This document shows, in pieces, positions 25,723-34,372 of a stretch of 64,000 nucleotides of DNA. How positions within the stretch are numbered: position 1 is the stretch's first letter; each line of letters opens with the position of its first letter. Source of the stretch: an uncultured Candidatus Micrarchaeota archaeon (lineage in GTDB: Archaea; Micrarchaeota; Micrarchaeia; Anstonellales; Bilamarchaeaceae); the NCBI GenBank assembly GCA_963714085.1, contig OY970229.1:896001-960000 (forward strand), given 5' to 3'. Position numbers and translations under genes: made by a program. The notes below the pieces were generated by a model. That model was not told the origin of the DNA. It worked only from the letters and a program-made list of their open reading frames with translations, and did no database searches.

Positions 25723-26721
25723 TCAGGCATGGTCCTGGAACTGCTGTGTGAACTTTCGCAGTGCCTCCAGCTTGGCCATCGCAGCACCGGAATCGATGGA
25801 TTTGCATGCAAGCCTAAGTCCCTTGCCGACGCTCTCCACCATACCGGCCACATAGATGGCGGCAGCGGCATTGAGCACGGATATATCCCTGGCGGCGCCC
25901 TTCTCTCCATTGAGCACGCCCATGGTTATGCGGGAGCTCTCCTGCTTCGAGCCCGCCTTCGGGATTTCCCTCCGGGAGATGCCGAAATCCGAGGCACGCA
26001 TGTCCCGCGTCCACATCTTACCGTCCCGGACCTCGCTGATCCTCGTGCGTCCCAGCCCAATCTCATCCATGCCATCGGAATGCACGACCAATGCCCTTTT
26101 CGTACCAAGGTCCAGCAGTACCCGGGCAATAATTTCGGTCAGCTCGGAGTCGAAAACGCCGAGTACCTGGGCGCTCGCTCCGGCTGGGTTGGCGAGCGGG
26201 CCGAGGATGTTGAAGACCGTGCGGGCGTTAAGCTCCTTCCTGACACCAGCCACGTTCTTCATGGCGGGATGGAAATAAGGTGCGAACATGAATCCTATGC
26301 CAATATCATTGATGCATCCGGCCACTTCTTCAGGCTGCAGCATCTTGACGCCCAGCTCCTCGAGCACGTCGGCCGAACCGCAGCTGCTGGACACCGCCCT
26401 GTTGCCGTGCTTGGCGATCGCCACGCCGGCCCCTGCCGCTATCAGCGCCGCGGTGGTGGAGATGTTGAACGTGCCGGACGAATCTCCTCCGGTTCCGCAT
26501 GTGTCAACGAGCGGCTCTCTCAAGGGTCGGATGGTCCTGGCATGGCTTCTCATTGCTTCGGCCAAGGCAGTGATCTCATCTTTGGTCGGTCCTTTCGTCT
26601 GCAGCGCGACAAGGAAGATTGCTTTCTTCAGGGGCTCTGAATCCGGGCTCATGAGCATGTCCATGGCGGCCCTGGCCTCATCCCGAGTGAGGTTCTTCCT
26701 CTGCATGAGTTTGCGATGCAT
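25723..26721 (-). CDS. trpD: Anthranilate phosphoribosyltransferase
   Basis: DTCGTGGD, FNISTT, KHGNRAVSS, GSADVLE, RTVFNILGPLANP. Confidence 0.97.
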   Translation of the reverse strand: MHRKLMQRKNLTRDEARAAMDMLMSPDSEPLKKAIFLVALQTKGPTKDEITALAEAMRSHARTIRPLREPLVDTCGTGGDSSGTFNISTTAALIAAGAGVAIAKHGNRAVSSSCGSADVLEELGVKMLQPEEVAGCINDIGIGFMFAPYFHPAMKNVAGVRKELNARTVFNILGPLANPAGASAQVLGVFDSELTEIIARVLLDLGTKRALVVHSDGMDEIGLGRTRISEVRDGKMWTRDMRASDFGISRREIPKAGSKQESSRITMGVLNGEKGAARDISVLNAAAAIYVAGMVESVGKGLRLACKSIDSGAAMAKLEALRKFTQQFQDHA

Positions 26722-27303: not shown

Positions 27304-29103
27304 TCATTCCGATACGGCGGGGTATTGCGCCCTTAATTCTTCCAGCGCGTGGATCGCGTTGTAGCCCTTCACAAAGGCCTCGATGGATGCTCTGACCGTG
27401 TCCGTGCCGACAACTGAAGACTCGACCTCCGATTCTCCCTTTTTGACGCTCATGGTGATTCTTCCCCGGGCGTCGCTTCCCCCGCCTATCCCGTGGGATT
27501 CGTAGGACGAGATTTCCACGCCCGTGCCATTGCCTATGGCAGCCCGGATCGCTTTTACTCCCGCATCCACAGGACCGTCTCCGCTGCTGTCCTCGCCAAC
27601 GACGTCTTCTCCATTGACCCTGACCCTCACGCGCGCATAACGCCCCGCATCTCCGGTCCTGACCTCCTCGACGCGGACGTCATCGACCAGGCTGCACGGC
27701 TTGTCCATCACCGCGGCGTAAGTCATGAGGAGGAAGTCCGCGTCGCTCACCGCGCTGGCCGCGGCCATCTCCTTCACTGCAGCCAGGATGACCGGCACCG
27801 TATCCTGCGGGACGCTGATGCCGAATTCATCCAGCTTGAGGACGATGCTCTTGTTCCCGGCGAGCCCACCTACTTCGACAGTCTCCTTTCTGCCTATTAT
27901 CTCCGGGGCGTAAGCTATGTACACACTTCCTCTGTCCCTTCTGTCAGACTCTGCGTTCTGCGTGACGGTCTTTTTGCTTTTGAAAACCCCGTCGGCGTGG
28001 ACGCCCGCCGTGTGCGACCCCGCCTTTATCCCGACGTACGACGCGTTCGGCGCAGGTCCGACCCCGAACCGTTCTGTCACGAAAGCGGACATCCTGGCCA
28101 GTTGGCTCACGTCAAAGTACTCAATGCCGTAGTTGAGGTACATATACATTGCCACCTGCTCCATCGACGCGTTCCCCGTCCTCTCGCCCACCCCGTGCAT
28201 CGTGACCTGCGCCACGTCCACTCCGGCGAGCATGGCCGCGATCGTGTTCTGCACCGCCATGCCCATGTCGTTATGGCAGTGCACCTGGAGAGGCAGTTCG
28301 GGGATTTCCGAGCGGATATACGATATGAGGCCGTACATGTAGGCCGGGTCGCACACTCCGATGGTGTCCGGGATGTTGTACTGGATGCCATGGCCACCGG
28401 CTGCTTCGTATACCCTCTTCCCTACCTCCACGATATGGGCCGGGTCCGCCCTCGCCGCGTCCTCGAGCGACACTATGATGTTGCCGAACTCCCTTTGCCC
28501 GGGGTCGAAGCCCTTCCCCCTGGCGTATCTCACGCATTCCACGATATGCTCTATGAGCTCTTCCGGCATCTTGTCGAATTTCACCCATGCGTGCGGGATG
28601 GAGCCAGAGGAGTAGATGTGCATAGTGTGCGCCTCCGCTTCTATCGCGGCGTCTATGTCCCTCTGCACCATGCGGCCGAGGCTGACGATTTCGGTCTTCA
28701 TGCCGGCTTCCCGCACCATCCGCCTCACCGTCCTTATGGCCTCGATCTCGCCCGGGTTGCTCACTGCATTGCCGACCTCTATTATAGGTATGCCGCAGCG
28801 GGCCAGCATCATGCAGATGTCGACCTTGTTCTCGACCACCGACCTTCCGGTCTGCTCGGTGATGAAGGCCTCCCTGGTCTGCATGCCGTCCCTGGCCGTG
28901 GTCTCGAATAACTTCTTTCTTCTGAGCCTTGCTACGGTCTCCCCGTCCCGTGCGACCATGGCACGGCCATATCCGTCGGCATAAGGCCCTATCACCTCGA
29001 GATACTTGTTCTTTCTCTCTTCCCACCACCCGAATTTCCTCACCGCATCCGGCATCGCCCTGATTGCCGGGCGCGCCATAACAATCCTTTGTCCGTTTTG
29101 CAT
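27304..29103 (-). CDS. leuA: 2-isopropylmalate synthase / citramalate synthase family (DRE-TIM) with C-terminal allosteric domain
   Basis: ETTARDGMQ, PDTIG, HCHNDMGMA, GVGERTGNA, regulatory GDGPVDA. ATG 29103 lies 6 nt after SD GAGGTG. leuA versus cimA not resolved. Confidence 0.8.
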   Translation of the reverse strand: MQNGQRIVMARPAIRAMPDAVRKFGWWEERKNKYLEVIGPYADGYGRAMVARDGETVARLRRKKLFETTARDGMQTREAFITEQTGRSVVENKVDICMMLARCGIPIIEVGNAVSNPGEIEAIRTVRRMVREAGMKTEIVSLGRMVQRDIDAAIEAEAHTMHIYSSGSIPHAWVKFDKMPEELIEHIVECVRYARGKGFDPGQREFGNIIVSLEDAARADPAHIVEVGKRVYEAAGGHGIQYNIPDTIGVCDPAYMYGLISYIRSEIPELPLQVHCHNDMGMAVQNTIAAMLAGVDVAQVTMHGVGERTGNASMEQVAMYMYLNYGIEYFDVSQLARMSAFVTERFGVGPAPNASYVGIKAGSHTAGVHADGVFKSKKTVTQNAESDRRDRGSVYIAYAPEIIGRKETVEVGGLAGNKSIVLKLDEFGISVPQDTVPVILAAVKEMAAASAVSDADFLLMTYAAVMDKPCSLVDDVRVEEVRTGDAGRYARVRVRVNGEDVVGEDSSGDGPVDAGVKAIRAAIGNGTGVEISSYESHGIGGGSDARGRITMSVKKGESEVESSVVGTDTVRASIEAFVKGYNAIHALEELRAQYPAVSE

Positions 29104-29301
29104 GAACCACACCTCTTTTTTTGTTTTTCACGACGCAGGAAAAAAGCAAGGCTAAGGGTATTTTTTCTATAAATCCGGGGTTCTAAGTGTGGTGTGGCCG
29201 CTAGGCCAGCAAAAGGAGCAGGCTGAGCGTGATGGAATTAGAGCTGATTTTTCCGCTCATGGCTTGCATACTGGTTCTTTGTGTAAGCAAGATTTTTTAA
29301 A
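29104..29301 (-). promoter_or_regulatory. Candidate leucine attenuator leader region (TATA, leader ORF, anti-SD, U6 tract, SD)
   Basis: TTTAAA from 29301; leader ORF 29269-29201; GGCCACACC (29199-29191) complementary to GGTGTGGTT (29113-29105), which overlaps the SD; U6 at 29145-29140. Confidence 0.7.
29201..29269 (-). CDS. Leucine-rich leader peptide MQAMSGKISSNSITLSLLLLLA (22 aa)
   Basis: Manual translation. Five consecutive Leu codons (CTG CTC CTT TTG CTG) just before the stop, 97 nt upstream of the leuA ATG. Confidence 0.75.
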   Translation of the reverse strand: MQAMSGKISSNSITLSLLLLLA

Positions 29302-29316
29302 GGCTACCTGCCGCGC

Positions 29317-29592
29317 CTAATCCGATTTTATCCACGTCTGGTAGTCCTTCATGCTCATCTCTATGGGCATGCCGCTGTAGCCGCATTTCGGGCAGTTGAT
29401 CTTGCTCGCCATGGAAGTCGTGCCCATGAGGGAGAGTGAGTCCATCTCGTAGTCCCCTTCGCTCACCGGTCGCTTGCACTTCGGGCAGACAAGGACGTCG
29501 TGGCTCTCGTCGCCTTTCTCGGCCTTCTCTATCTCCTTGTCCTCCTCATCGATTTCCTTGTCGAGCTCCTCTTCTTCGGTTTTCTTGGCCAT
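29317..29592 (-). CDS. Small acidic zinc-ribbon protein
   Basis: Start corrected to MAKKTEEEE; CPKC ... CPKCGY. Confidence 0.75.
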   Translation of the reverse strand: MAKKTEEEELDKEIDEEDKEIEKAEKGDESHDVLVCPKCKRPVSEGDYEMDSLSLMGTTSMASKINCPKCGYSGMPIEMSMKDYQTWIKSD

Positions 29593-29659: not shown

Positions 29660-32600
29660 ATGAGGCGCATCGTCCTCCTGTTGTTATTGGTATCCATCGC
29701 GTTCGCGTCCAATGTCACCACCAGTCCGCAGGATGCTGCGTATAACACTGCCAATGTCACTGGACCGTCCCATGATTATTACATCGTCAGCTTCAACGGG
29801 CCCATAACCGACGCGCAAAGGGCCAGCGTGGAATCCTCGGGATTGGAAATCGTTGGCTATGCCGGGGACTACTCCTATGTCGCGAGGACGCCCATCGGAG
29901 CCGTCCCCACAGCCTCGGGTTTCAGCATCGAGAAGATGGGGAACAAACCGATGAAAGCCATGTCAAGCATGGCCTTGGCGACAAACAGCACGCTTTTGGA
30001 AAACATAATCGTGGTTCTCTACCCTGGCGAGGATGCCGACGGGATGGTGAACGCGATAAGCGCCATAGCGCCCGCGGAAAAGTACGATGAAAAGACTGTA
30101 GTCGTCCCATCCGCCACCGAGGACCAGCTTTCGGAGATACGTTCCATTCCCGGGGTCATAGGAGCCGATCCCAAGATGCCAAATCAAGTCTTCAATAATT
30201 ACGCGGCACCGGTACTTGGTGTGAGCGATGTCTGGTCACGGCTCGGTCTGAACGGGAACAGCACGATTGTGGCGATTGGGGATACTGGCCTCGACACCGG
30301 AAACCTATCCACGATGCATATTGATTTCCGTGGGAGGGTCAACATAAGCGCATGGTGCGACGGGGCAGGGCATGGCTATACATGTTCTGGTAATCCGACT
30401 GGCAAGGACCTGATGGGTCACGGAACGCACGTTTGCGGTTCGGTTCTCGGGGGCGGGAACGCGAGTGGCGGTGTAATCAAAGGCATGGCGTTTGGGGCCA
30501 AGCTGTTCATGCAAAGCCTTAATCCTGACGGGACCGATAGCATTTACACGCCAGACAACCTGGAGCTGTTATTCAATGAATCGTACAATGCCAATGCTAG
30601 TTTGCACTCGGATTCCTGGGGTGATAATTACTATCACTATGATAGCTCTAGCTCATATTTCATAGATGATTTTTCATACCAACATCCAGATTTCCTAATC
30701 CTTTTCGCAGCAAGCAACAATGGATCGGCTGGTGCAGACACAATATCCTCTGAGGGCCAAGCTAAGAACGACATAACCGTAGGTGCTGTCGGAACTACAC
30801 GAACGACTCCCTCAGACCCATATTCTACTGGTCCTGGCGTCGTTTCATCATTCTCATCAATAGGTCCGACATCTGATGGTAGGTACAAGCCAGACCTCAT
30901 GGCTCCGGGAGACAACATACTTTCCACCAAGTCATCTGCCACGGGGGTCTGGGCCTGCAATACGGCATGCGGTAGCGCATGTAATTCCTCATATGCGTCT
31001 TCCTATGCGTTTTGCTCAGGCACTTCCATGGCGACCCCGTTGTCAACCGGAAGCGCAACGCTGGTCCGGGATTATCTGATAAAAAACATGTCCATGGTAG
31101 ATCCTCCGTCCGCCCTGATTAAAGCTATTCTCATCGCCGGGGCCGAAGACCTGCCTTCCTATGGCGCTTCCCCGAATTTCAACTCCGGTTTTGGAAGGAT
31201 CAACCTTTCGGAATCGCTTCCACAAGGAAAGCAGGTAATGAACTTCACTTTGGGGAACATAAGCACCAATACTTCGATCTCTCTGCAGTACCATTTCAGG
31301 ACCAGCAACAGAACAAGATTCGCGCTTGTTTGGACGGACCCTGCTTGCATAAGCAGTTGTGACGCCAAGGCGCTGGTGAACGACCTTGACCTCGCCGTGA
31401 CGCTTCCGAACGGGACTCTCTTCTACGGTAACAGCAGGGGAAACAGTTCCGCAGGGCCTGACAGGAAGAACAATGTGGAAATGGTGGAGCTCAACCCGGT
31501 GCCCGGGCGGTATACCGTGAACGTCTCAGGGTATAGTGTGCCGATTGGACCGCAGGCATTCTCTTTGGTTGTAATTGGCGGAATCGACCCGGATGCGCCG
31601 AGCATCAGCATCTCCAGCCCGGCGAATACGACCTATTTCGTTAACACTGTCAACCTAACTTTCCAGGTCAACGACAGCGACCTGAATTCCTGCTGGTATT
31701 CTCTCAACGGAGCGGGCCCTACCGCGCTGCCTAACTGTTCCAATACGACCATCGGCCCCGTAGTGGACAATAGTTACAATCTCTCCGTATTCGCCAACGA
31801 CTCGGGAGGGAATGTGAACAGCTCGAACGTAACGTTCGTCATAGCCGCAGCACCGAACGTAATCATCAACTCCCCGGTCAACACGACGTACAATTACGCT
31901 TCCATCCCTATCGACATCAACGTGACCGCTCCCACGAACGTCAGCGCGACATGGTTCTTCAACGGCACAGTGAACGAAACCTACAACGGAACGGTGAACC
32001 GGACTTACAGCGACGGGCAACACACCCTCATCGCATACGCGAACGATACGCTCGGAGATAACTCAAGCGTCAGCGTCTCATTCACAGTGGACACGACCCC
32101 GCCGATTGCCAACCAGATATTTCCCCTGCAAGGTTATCTCACCAATGCTTCGGCAATAAACTTCAGCTTCACAGCTGTCGACAACCTGTCAACAACCATG
32201 AACTGCTCGTTGTACATCGACAATTTCCTGAATCGGTCGAATGCAACGACTCAGAACAATACGCTAACTAATTTTTCAGTCTTGGGCATACCAGACGGCA
32301 GGCACAACTGGAGCATAAGCTGCACCGACCAGGCGAACAATACCAATATGAGCGCGACCAGTAATTTCACAGTGGACACAACGCCCCCAAGCACCATCCA
32401 AATATTCCCTTTGCAAGGCTACCTCACCAACGTCTCAACGATAAACTTCAGCTTCACCGCAGTAGACAACCTGGCCTCGATAATGAACTGCTCGTTGTAC
32501 ATCGACAATTTCCTGAATCGGTCGAATGCAACGACTCAGAACAATACGCTAACTAATTTTTCAGTCTTGGGCATACCAGACGGCAGGCACAACTGGAGCA

Positions 32601-34372
32601 TAAGCTGCACCGACCAGGCGAACAATACCAATATGAGCGCGACCAGTAATTTCACAGTGGATACGACCGCCCCGATGATCATCCTCAACTCACCCGCCAA
32701 CCTATCCTTGTTCAACATCCAGAACGTAACCTTCAACTTCACCACGGTGGACAATCTGGCTCCACCAATGAACTGCTCGATTTTCCTAGACAACGTCCTG
32801 AACTCGACCAACCCATTGGTGAACAACGACACAGCGGCCAGCTTTCTGATTAGTGGCATAAGCGACGGCAACCACACCTGGTACGTTGCGTGCACTGATA
32901 ACGCCAATAACACAGGCCCGAGCGCAACCTGGAACTTCAGCGTCGGCACGATTCCGCCAACAATCTCAGGCATCTCAAACATAATCCAGACAGCGACCAA
33001 CCTGACTTCGAACGTGACTTACAGCCCCACCGCAAAAGACGAGTACAACGCCTCCGTCAACGTGTCATGCACACCTGCTTCCGGCTCACTATTCCCAATC
33101 GGAACTACTATGGTGAACTGCACCGCAACCGACGCCTACAACAACGCGGCTAATGAATCATTCAACGTGACCGAGAACCCGGGCGCAACGGCCCCGACAA
33201 TCTCAAACATCCAGAACATAACTGATACCGCAGTGACTCCTGCCGGAACTATAGAGAATTACACCCCCACAGCGGAGGACGAGTACAACGCATCGGTCAA
33301 CGTGTCATGCACGCCTCCATCTGGGTCACTCTTCCCGATAGGGACTACGCATGTGAACTGCAGCGCGACGGACATCTACGGCAACACGGCCAATGCGGCA
33401 TTCAACGTGACGGAGAACACAAACCCACCGAACATAGCGCTCAGCAGCCCTGCAAACGGAGCTTCTTACACGTCAAGCGCGCCCCTCAACGTGACCTTCA
33501 ACTTCACGGCGACTGAACCGGCGACTCCAACAATGAACTGCTCGCTTTACCTGGGCGGGCTGCTCAACTACACTAATGATAGCGTCGTAGGTGGCTTCCC
33601 CAACCAGATAATCGTGCTGATGGAGCTCGGAAGCCATATCTGGAACGTCACCTGCCAGGATATCTACAATAATACGAACTCATCAGCGACCTACGGCTTC
33701 ACGATAGCTGCACCTGCGCCGGCCCCGGCGCCTTCGTCCGGAGGAGGCGGGGGTGGCGGAGGAGGCGGCGGTGGGGGTGGTGGAGGCGGTGGCGGAGGTG
33801 GCGGCGGCGCAGCGATCGCACCCACGGCGAACATCACACTCGAGCATCCAATCCCTTCGGCAAACGCGTGCAAGCTTGACAGAGACTGCAATAGCAGCGA
33901 TGCCTGCTTCGGCGGCATATGCAGGCAGCTGAACGGCACATGCGGTTTCGCCGCCAACCATACCTGGAATTCGTATCAATGCTGCTCCGACGCCATGTGC
34001 CCCACGGACTCCGAGTGCAACAACAACTCCTGCGTCATCTACGAGGCGCCCCAGGTCCAGCCTGAGGTCGAGAACAAGACGGTGTATGTGACGGAGCAGC
34101 CGTGCCAATGCAGGCTCTTCGGGATGTGCTCGCCGACCGGCTCGCCGACTATAGCAGGCAGCTGCTGGTACAACCCCGCGATTGCCGCCATCGTTGCAAT
34201 CATAATACTCGGCTTCGCGTACCGCATCGCGACCATGATAAATATCGGGCGCGGGAAAGCGGAGACCAATACCCAAGAGCCCAAAGGCGGGGGAACACCT
34301 GGCAAAAAGCACAAGAGGAAGAGGAAAGCGCAAACTGCAGCGTCTTCCACGCCGCCCATGAGCGGGGCATAG
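29660..34372 (+). CDS. Secreted, membrane-anchored S8 subtilase (Kp43-like) with Ig-like/HYR stalk, poly-Gly linker and Cys-rich domain
   Basis: Signal peptide; triad motifs GDTG, HGTHV, GTSMATP; KPDLMAPG; C-terminal TM plus KKHKRKRK tail. Confidence 0.93.
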   Translation: MRRIVLLLLLVSIAFASNVTTSPQDAAYNTANVTGPSHDYYIVSFNGPITDAQRASVESSGLEIVGYAGDYSYVARTPIGAVPTASGFSIEKMGNKPMKAMSSMALATNSTLLENIIVVLYPGEDADGMVNAISAIAPAEKYDEKTVVVPSATEDQLSEIRSIPGVIGADPKMPNQVFNNYAAPVLGVSDVWSRLGLNGNSTIVAIGDTGLDTGNLSTMHIDFRGRVNISAWCDGAGHGYTCSGNPTGKDLMGHGTHVCGSVLGGGNASGGVIKGMAFGAKLFMQSLNPDGTDSIYTPDNLELLFNESYNANASLHSDSWGDNYYHYDSSSSYFIDDFSYQHPDFLILFAASNNGSAGADTISSEGQAKNDITVGAVGTTRTTPSDPYSTGPGVVSSFSSIGPTSDGRYKPDLMAPGDNILSTKSSATGVWACNTACGSACNSSYASSYAFCSGTSMATPLSTGSATLVRDYLIKNMSMVDPPSALIKAILIAGAEDLPSYGASPNFNSGFGRINLSESLPQGKQVMNFTLGNISTNTSISLQYHFRTSNRTRFALVWTDPACISSCDAKALVNDLDLAVTLPNGTLFYGNSRGNSSAGPDRKNNVEMVELNPVPGRYTVNVSGYSVPIGPQAFSLVVIGGIDPDAPSISISSPANTTYFVNTVNLTFQVNDSDLNSCWYSLNGAGPTALPNCSNTTIGPVVDNSYNLSVFANDSGGNVNSSNVTFVIAAAPNVIINSPVNTTYNYASIPIDINVTAPTNVSATWFFNGTVNETYNGTVNRTYSDGQHTLIAYANDTLGDNSSVSVSFTVDTTPPIANQIFPLQGYLTNASAINFSFTAVDNLSTTMNCSLYIDNFLNRSNATTQNNTLTNFSVLGIPDGRHNWSISCTDQANNTNMSATSNFTVDTTPPSTIQIFPLQGYLTNVSTINFSFTAVDNLASIMNCSLYIDNFLNRSNATTQNNTLTNFSVLGIPDGRHNWSISCTDQANNTNMSATSNFTVDTTAPMIILNSPANLSLFNIQNVTFNFTTVDNLAPPMNCSIFLDNVLNSTNPLVNNDTAASFLISGISDGNHTWYVACTDNANNTGPSATWNFSVGTIPPTISGISNIIQTATNLTSNVTYSPTAKDEYNASVNVSCTPASGSLFPIGTTMVNCTATDAYNNAANESFNVTENPGATAPTISNIQNITDTAVTPAGTIENYTPTAEDEYNASVNVSCTPPSGSLFPIGTTHVNCSATDIYGNTANAAFNVTENTNPPNIALSSPANGASYTSSAPLNVTFNFTATEPATPTMNCSLYLGGLLNYTNDSVVGGFPNQIIVLMELGSHIWNVTCQDIYNNTNSSATYGFTIAAPAPAPAPSSGGGGGGGGGGGGGGGGGGGGGGGAAIAPTANITLEHPIPSANACKLDRDCNSSDACFGGICRQLNGTCGFAANHTWNSYQCCSDAMCPTDSECNNNSCVIYEAPQVQPEVENKTVYVTEQPCQCRLFGMCSPTGSPTIAGSCWYNPAIAAIVAIIILGFAYRIATMINIGRGKAETNTQEPKGGGTPGKKHKRKRKAQTAASSTPPMSGA
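32081..32661 (+). repeat. 285-bp-period tandem domain duplication with an identical ~179-bp core
   Basis: 32198-32376 matches 32483-32661 base for base by eye; FTVDTT junctions at 32081, 32366 and 32651. Confidence 0.92.
33740..33808 (+). repeat. GGN x23 poly-glycine tract
   Basis: 23 consecutive Gly codons with mixed third positions. Confidence 0.95.

What the first reader, a model, noticed from the sequence alone, without database searches (positions are those of the whole stretch)
29104..29301. Candidate leucine-sensing leader-peptide attenuator in an archaeon, upstream of a leuA-like gene
Seen (minus strand): (1) TTTAAA starting 32 nt before an ATG, the same spacing as other apparently leaderless genes here. 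(2) A 22-codon ORF, too short for the ORF track: MQAMSGKISSNSITLSLLLLLA*, with five consecutive Leu in four different codons (CTG CTC CTT TTG CTG). (3) Its stop sits in the loop of a TGGCC-TAGC-GGCCA hairpin. (4) GGCCACACC, right after the stop, can form 9 bp (2 G-U) with GGTGTGGTT, overlapping the leuA SD GAGGTG; a second register ACCACACTT/AGGTGTGGT also works. (5) A U6 tract at 29145-29140. Established: bacterial leuL leaders, the actinobacterial LEU element and leaderless poly-amino-acid uORFs sense charged tRNA by ribosome stalling. To my knowledge such attenuators are essentially uncharacterised in archaea. Inference: a ribosome stalled on the Leu run masks the anti-SD and frees the leuA start; with leucine abundant the SD is sequestered and/or transcription ends at U6.
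Basis: partly seen in the sequence, partly recalled or inferred. Interest (0 to 1): 0.92.

Follow-up and report, generated by a model that had tools for sequence, protein, structure and literature searches.

The report
Conserved leucine leader peptide in Micrarchaeota

Summary
The listed sequence features are present. The 22-codon Leu-run ORF, its TATA spacing, the hairpin around its stop and a downstream U-rich tract recur at 19 loci in Micrarchaeota genomes or matching metagenome contigs. All 16 clade leuA-like genes I read have it (one with an eroded run, one behind an inserted ORF). In 18 intact copies 71 of the 72 codons before the final Ala/Gly are Leu, in four codons. Relatives carry Phe/Tyr/Trp-rich ORFs before DAHP synthase (17 of 18 loci). 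This genome also has an Ile-run ORF sharing an RNA module with Phe leaders of pheA. A translated leucine gauge is likely (~0.8). The anti-SD switch fails: the pairing is not conserved (8 of 18) and the polarity is wrong. My best guess is termination at the U tract by aCPSF1/FttA; this is inferred, and folding shows no switch. Oddities: no LeuB/LeuD/IlvD was found in the genomes tested, and three copies precede unrelated ORFs. No Rfam match. The scan found this element before in other Micrarchaeota; the Ile/Phe module was not in its index. No RNA data.

The parts
29296..29301 (-). TATA-like box (TTTAAA) of the leader transcript
   Evidence: A box chosen without regard to frame was found in 16 of 18 copies. 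In all 16 the first ATG after it (30-32 nt away in 15, 25 nt in one) is in frame and open to the Leu run. Genome peak of box-to-ATG distance is 28-31 nt.
29201..29269 (-). 22-codon leader ORF MQAMSGKISSNSITLSLLLLLA*
   Evidence: Homologues are 20-33 codons long; their length differences in alignment A3 are multiples of three. The stop is TAG, TGA or TAA.
29207..29227 (-). Leu control codons CTC AGC CTG CTC CTT TTG CTG
   Evidence: 71 of 72 codons at positions -2..-5 before the last residue are Leu in 18 copies (counted from the list). CTT and TTG make up 25% and 24% of leader Leu codons against 9% and 7% genome-wide (the copies are related, so not independent).
29195..29208 (-). 5-bp hairpin with the stop codon in its loop
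   Evidence: 97.5% of cells paired in 16 sequences; one double-sided change (Ala GCC to Gly GGC with a matching 3' arm); 53 of 500 shuffles reach this score. Kept in the G103 copy whose Leu run is eroded.
29191..29199 (-).
29150..29194 (-). G-poor, weakly structured spacer; contains a non-conserved TTTATA at 29173-29168
   Evidence: G fraction 0.06-0.15 in 18 copies; TTTATA in 1 of 16 copies checked.
29140..29149 (-). U-rich tract (TTGCTTTTTT), candidate aCPSF1/FttA termination signal
   Evidence: A U-rich window lies +36..+61 from the stop in 18 of 18 copies (picked as the best 10-nt window, so partly by construction) and 37 nt or more before the downstream ATG in all 18.
29110..29115 (-). 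Shine-Dalgarno GAGGTG of the downstream gene
   Evidence: GGTG invariant in 15 aligned copies.
27304..29103 (-). LeuA-like DRE-TIM enzyme (599 aa) of a divergent Micrarchaeota clade, with N-terminal extension and LeuA allosteric domain
   Evidence: Pfam HMGL-like and LeuA_dimer. Best NCBIfam hits are isopropylmalate synthases but all below the curated cut-offs. RDG, HxH and GERTGN motifs are kept. The 13 clade rows form one long-branched clade (SH-aLRT 100, quick tree).
29317..29592 (-). Upstream small zinc-ribbon-like ORF (context only; other copies have other upstream neighbours)

Best explanation
The element is a translated leader peptide that reports charged leucyl-tRNA and gates expression of the gene behind it. 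The transcript starts at or a few bases before the uORF AUG (inferred from TATA spacing), so a ribosome loads at once. With leucine plentiful, it clears the Leu run, terminates in the small hairpin and leaves. RNA polymerase then transcribes about 100 nt of untranslated, G-poor RNA, and aCPSF1/FttA cleaves and terminates at the U-rich tract before the leuA start is usable. With leucine scarce, the ribosome stays on the Leu codons, the stop hairpin cannot form, and read-through rises. Shown by sequence comparison: selection on frame, Leu identity, stop position, hairpin, U tract and SD. Inferred: translation, leucine dependence, termination as the output. Not resolved: how the stalled ribosome blocks termination in this leader. 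I put about 0.8 on 'translated leucine gauge' and about 0.6 on termination given that.
For: 19 loci: 4, 3 more, L054/L055/L057, six distinct, G424 and a second G365 copy, G103. In-frame first ATG in 16 of 16 copies with a box. Leu-only run with synonymous changes. No such hairpin-stop leader before 14 other family members in relatives or 75 non-clade homologues (five had under 200 nt upstream). Pathway-matched leaders in the same lineage: aromatic-rich ORFs before DAHP synthase in 17 of 18 loci and before stand-alone pheA in G103 and G125. G004 carries both a Leu and an aromatic leader. In the aromatic leaders a stem starting at the stop hides a GGUUUU arm that opens only when a ribosome sits at the stop (unpaired 0.23 free, 0.24 stalled, 0.60 at stop; 16 loci), the polarity expected for U-tract termination. 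aCPSF1 is encoded here. Archaeal termination needs U-rich RNA and no hairpin (PMC7515710, passages). FttA uses RNA -1..-36 with U-rich RNA at -30..-36 (PMC11616081, passages), which fits the 37 nt or more between tract and ATG.
Against: No folding switch at the U tract of the Leu leaders (unpaired 0.66, 0.63, 0.63; mean opening cost 1.8-2.7 kcal/mol). A stalled ribosome is also uncoupled from polymerase, so plain uncoupling does not explain the polarity. U tracts are common in archaeal intergenic DNA. No LeuB or LeuD was found in 5 genomes (only IDH and AcnA-type hits in 2), no stand-alone LeuD in 5 more, no IlvD in 6; completeness 77-95%. So the physiological purpose is unclear. Three copies (G143, L142, L152) precede unrelated ORFs and one (G424) an inserted ORF. 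The G103 copy has only 3 Leu in its last 8 codons with the hairpin intact. Hairpin covariation rests on one event. No Leu/Ile/Val leader with this architecture appeared in 13 regions around ilvC or canonical leuA/cimA genes of relatives.
Confidence: 0.5

Rival explanations
1. Leucine gauge with translational output, like the actinobacterial LEU element: the pyrimidine-rich Leu codons themselves pair with the purine-rich SD, and a stalled ribosome frees the SD.
For: Right polarity. Leu-run:SD duplex mean -9.0 against -8.2 non-cognate and -8.0 shuffled, better in 11 of 18; the site opens more easily when the Leu run is masked than in free RNA in 10 of 18. Such a base stem is described for LEU (PMC1262725, passages).
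Against: The effect is about 0.6-0.9 kcal/mol and weak in the divergent copies (-3.6 to -7.6). The SD stays mostly paired with other pyrimidine stretches at every ribosome position.
Confidence: 0.17
2. One reading: a Leu-stalled ribosome masks the anti-SD just after the stop and frees the leuA start.
For: A 9-bp duplex forms in this genome (-15.7 kcal/mol) and fairly well in G001 and G259.
Against: Not conserved (8 of 18). Wrong geometry and polarity.
Confidence: 0.05
3. The ORF is translated and conserved, but the element is not a leucine gauge now. It is a fixed dampener, a general translation-stress sensor, a relic from a prototrophic ancestor, or a peptide acting in trans.
For: The leucine pathway looks incomplete. 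The leader persists before unrelated ORFs. One copy has an eroded run. Leader-mutation results in Streptomyces were not consistent with classical attenuation (as reported in PMC1262725).
Against: Strict Leu conservation across LeuA proteins only 33-77% identical to this one. The N-terminal part of the peptide varies freely in sequence and length. The amino acid matches the pathway in the aromatic leaders.
Confidence: 0.23
4. Chance ORF, or the stump of a signal-peptide-bearing gene.
For: SLLLLLA resembles the end of a signal peptide (my own knowledge); Leu has six codons.
Against: The stop is kept in place as three different codons. No Ile/Val/Phe substitution in 72 positions. 1 of 1,278 background ORFs.
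Confidence: 0.03

Closest known systems
Enterobacterial leu operon leader (leuL) and other classical leader-peptide attenuators (own knowledge; Rfam library searched)
   Same: Short upstream ORF with a run of cognate codons, enriched in minor codons, before the first enzyme of the pathway.
   Different: No GC-rich terminator hairpin or 2:3/3:4 alternation. Archaeal TATA promoter and near-leaderless start. No Rfam match. The downstream pathway looks incomplete.
Actinobacterial LEU element upstream of leuA (PMC1262725; abstract and passages read)
   Same: Leu-run ORF before leuA with no classical terminator; possible pairing of Leu codons with the SD.
   Different: No pseudoknot or other conserved long-range pairing was found here (only nested folding was run). 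Base-stem pairing is weak and not conserved. There is a stop-codon hairpin and a U tract.
Rfam RF03001 leuA-Halobacteria RNA (Cis-reg; accession recalled, then confirmed)
   Same: A conserved element named after archaeal leuA, so archaeal leuA leaders have some prior art.
   Different: It is a 53-nt model; the 34 consensus positions shown contain no Leu run (19 were hidden). It does not match this leader, and its best hit in the genome lies elsewhere, below the cut-off. Its description is probably in a supplement that I could not read.
Factor-dependent attenuators such as E. coli tnaC (Rho) and mycobacterial poly-amino-acid leaderless uORFs (own knowledge)
   Same: Ribosome state on a short ORF followed by a G-poor, unstructured stretch that could load a termination factor.
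   Different: The factor would be aCPSF1/FttA; the sensor is a run of Leu codons, not an arrest peptide. Not tested here.

Membership tests
Classical leader-peptide transcription attenuator (leuL type) | Short upstream ORF with a run of cognate codons | tested here: met
Classical leader-peptide transcription attenuator (leuL type) | Intrinsic terminator hairpin plus U run, with a competing antiterminator | tested here: not met
   0 terminator-like sites; the consensus fold has only the 5-bp stop hairpin; no switch.
Classical leader-peptide transcription attenuator (leuL type) | Match to an Rfam leader model | tested here: not met
Classical leader-peptide transcription attenuator (leuL type) | Output depends on amino-acid supply and on leader translation | not testable with these tools
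   No RNA run was listed; needs an experiment.
Actinobacterial LEU element | Base stem between Leu codons and the SD | tested here: inconclusive
   Cognate better in 11 of 18; mean margin 0.8 kcal/mol.
Actinobacterial LEU element | Conserved pseudoknot | not tested
   Only nested folding was run.
Rfam leuA-Halobacteria (RF03001) | Score over the gathering cut-off of 47.9 bits | tested here: not met
   No hit at the leader; best genome hit 22.7 bits elsewhere.
aCPSF1/FttA-dependent terminator | U-rich RNA about 30-36 nt behind the polymerase, and the factor encoded | tested here: inconclusive
   Tract and spacing are compatible and the gene is present; 3' ends were not observed.
2-isopropylmalate synthase (LeuA) | HMGL-like TIM barrel with RD and HxH motifs plus LeuA allosteric domain | tested here: met
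2-isopropylmalate synthase (LeuA) | Score over an NCBIfam LeuA, CimA or homocitrate-synthase cut-off | tested here: not met
   Best 313 bits against 517; substrate unknown.

The most novel reading that the evidence does not exclude
Micrarchaeota use a set of ribosome-read amino-acid gauges (at least three RNA architectures: Leu, aromatic, and a module shared by Phe and Ile runs). These end transcription through the archaeal factor aCPSF1/FttA rather than a terminator hairpin. In cells that no longer make the amino acid, the leaders have been kept, re-coded (Phe to Ile) and placed before new genes as sensors of what the host or habitat supplies.
Probability: 0.3. Interest if true: 0.9.

Novelty: new variant of a known kind. 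Interest (0 to 1): 0.74.

Why it matters
Ribosome-mediated attenuation needs transcription and translation to communicate. In archaea such coupling is proposed, but direct evidence is called scarce (PMC13681488, passages), and FttA-ribosome exclusion is stated as a hypothesis (PMC11616081). A 170-nt cassette with a codon-programmable input would make this testable in model archaea and would be a natural tool for amino-acid-controlled expression. It also suggests that reduced, host-dependent archaea monitor amino-acid supply even where the pathway looks incomplete, and it points to uncharacterised genes that may be switched on by starvation.

Tried and rejected
Anti-SD switch: rejected. Internal promoter at TTTATA: not conserved. 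Hairpin 3' arm acting as antiterminator by pairing past the U tract: pairing probability 0.5 or more in only 2 of 18 copies. A loose pattern scan was near its control level: 19 of 401 genomes matched against 14 reversed-pattern hits, and only 5 were true leaders. 18 of 25 metagenome matches were chance. A Leu-rich ORF before the Methanosarcina-type gene in L072 has no counterpart in 25 related loci, so it was treated as chance. The R2 hit in G140 was not recovered by R3. pheA itself has a leader directly upstream in 1 of 30 loci; in most of the others it follows another aro-operon gene. RNA evidence: no RNA holder was listed. The protein behind the Ile leader has no Pfam hit, no usable atlas hit and only two marginal matches in 60 relatives. 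Literature: searches listed no paper describing archaeal leader-peptide attenuators (I saw listings and abstract starts only). The main text of PMC5737381 lacks 'leuA' and its supplement was unreadable. PMC7261190 notes uORFs in Haloferax without attenuation (passages). I recall a proposal of Trp-codon-based translational control of trpY in Methanothermobacter but could not read it; it may be partial prior art. The careful tree did not finish; the quick tree left out G038 and has no bacterial rows, so the origin of the clade is open.

Full report
Observation. The ORF 29269-29201 on the minus strand ends L-S-L-L-L-L-L-A-stop. Among 1,278 intergenic ATG ORFs of 10-40 codons in this genome (my own gene calls) it is the only one with six Leu in the last eight codons. 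It lies 100 nt before the only DRE-TIM gene found in the genome. That gene has the HMGL-like and LeuA allosteric domains but scores below all NCBIfam cut-offs, so 'LeuA-like' is as far as the name can go. Its closest named relatives are Micrarchaeota. The TATA-to-ATG distance is at the upper edge of the 28-31 nt peak seen among 653 genes with free upstream DNA.

Conservation. Reading upstream of 18 family hits in relatives gave the element in 4, all of one clade marked by RDGMQ. A pattern scan of 401 genomes gave 19 matches against 14 control hits, 5 of them real. Of 80 genome loci from the protein search, the 5 clade members have it (one behind an inserted 157-aa ORF) and the 75 others do not. 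A metagenome scan gave 7 real matches in 25, two identical. An RNA model hit 10 of 99 genomes of the family. After removing duplicates there are 18 intact copies. A 19th, in G103, was missed by the model and found through the protein; it keeps the box and hairpin but reads S-A-L-L-Q-L-A. All 16 clade genes whose upstream I read have the element; two of these are known only from an N-terminus at a contig end.

Signs of translation. With the TATA-like box picked blind to frame, the first ATG after it is in frame and open in 16 of 16 copies (two had no box by my pattern). Length differences inside the ORF are multiples of three. The N-terminal half varies freely, while 71 of 72 codons before the last residue are Leu, spread over CTC, CTT, TTG and CTG. 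The stop is TAG, TGA or TAA in the loop of a 5-bp hairpin with one compensatory change, which alone is not significant. This argues against chance, a signal-peptide stump or a purely structural RNA.

Mechanism tests. It lies where a terminating ribosome, not a Leu-stalled one, would cover it, taking the ribosome edge as 12 nt past the A site (my assumption). Pairing of the Leu codons with the SD has the right polarity but only a weak signal (11 of 18). What is conserved is a G-poor spacer and a U-rich tract at least 37 nt before the downstream ATG. Archaeal termination uses U-rich RNA without a hairpin (PMC7515710, passages). FttA engages RNA -1 to -36 (PMC11616081, passages), and aCPSF1 is encoded here. 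I therefore favour factor-dependent termination, but folding shows no switch at the tract, so the link from stalling to read-through is unexplained.

Sister elements. A scan of this genome found a second six-codon run, MHNNRKTSETAIRAASSIIPIIIIR* at C1:810274-810197, before a 250-aa ORF of no known family. The DNA after its stop matched G103. There it follows MVRNKNKTNSFAKFSFSFRHF* before a prephenate dehydratase, and G125 has a third copy after a Phe run before the same kind of gene. The module has 7 of 18 pairs with double-sided changes in three sequences, is in 3 of 150 genomes searched and had no Rfam match. Of 61 genomes with prephenate dehydratase among 171 searched, I fetched 20 regions. 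18 held DAHP synthase, and 17 of these have a Phe/Tyr/Trp-rich ORF at the operon head. In these a long stem begins at the stop, and its U-rich arm opens only with a ribosome at the stop (16 loci, four of them anchored on a U run other than the stem's 3' arm). The match between amino acid and pathway across elements is the strongest indirect evidence for sensing.

Results against a simple story. LeuB, LeuD and IlvD were not found in the leader-bearing genomes tested (incomplete genomes). Full-length IlvC-type hits were in 8 of 176 genomes of the order, not this one. In G143, L142 and L152 the whole leader with its SD precedes unrelated ORFs, and in G143 and L152 the upstream neighbour matches that of a leuA-bearing locus. 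G143's only HMGL-like hit is a non-clade protein. No leader of this type appeared near ilvC or canonical leuA/cimA genes in 13 regions. These facts fit either a relic or a gauge reused for nutrient status.

Comparison and novelty. It works like a leader-peptide attenuator but fails membership of the classical family (no terminator or antiterminator, no Rfam match) and of RF03001 leuA-Halobacteria. Eight paper searches listed no report of such elements in archaea. The library lacks most subscription papers, one supplement was unreadable, and a recalled trpY proposal could not be checked. Earlier unchecked notes of this scan describe the same Leu element in other Micrarchaeota, similar ones in other archaea, and an aromatic leader before archaeal aroF. 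A sequence look-up of the Ile/Phe module found nothing. Verdict: a real conserved element, a new variant of a known kind, with the mechanism half resolved; interest 0.74.

Noticed in passing
G000:C1:810274-810111 (-), outside the window; L030:4112-4275: Ile-run ORF MHNNRKTSETAIRAASSIIPIIIIR* with its own GGTG, followed by an 85-nt covarying RNA module with a conserved GGARUAAAGAA loop, before a 250-aa ORF of no known family. The same module follows Phe-run ORFs before pheA in G103 and G125, suggesting a Phe-to-Ile re-coding.
   Followed up: partly
L213-L231, e.g. L223:2548-2610 (G004), L216:6675-6746 (G192): Phe/Tyr/Trp-rich leader ORFs (core FSFSY) at the head of the aro operon in 17 of 18 loci, with a long stem starting at the stop and often a second small hairpin (UUAG..GUR..GAU) after it.
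   Followed up: partly
L040:96-836 (-), L142, L152, L180: The Leu leader with intact SD precedes ORFs unrelated to leuA (247 aa in G143; 70-80 aa then 131-199 aa in L142 and L152; 157 aa inserted before leuA in G424).
   Followed up: partly
window 25723-26721 (-): A trpD (anthranilate phosphoribosyltransferase) with no other trp gene beside it here; G259 has trpD, trpG and trpE in a similar neighbourhood near its leuA-like gene.
   Followed up: no
window 29660-34372 (+): 1,570-aa secreted subtilase-like protein with repeated domains and a long Gly run, starting 68 nt from the small upstream ORF on the other strand.
   Followed up: no
L072: A contig labelled Saccharibacteria carries a LeuA-family protein nested among Methanosarcina rows of the tree: probably a binning contaminant.
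   Followed up: yes
L283 (G103:C18), about 250-400 nt before the leuA-like gene: A tRNA-Phe-like gene that appears interrupted by an insertion; an uninterrupted copy precedes the leader in G421 and L152.
   Followed up: no
L161:6179-7183 (G318): An asnA (aspartate-ammonia ligase) gene directly follows the leuA-like gene on the same strand.
   Followed up: no
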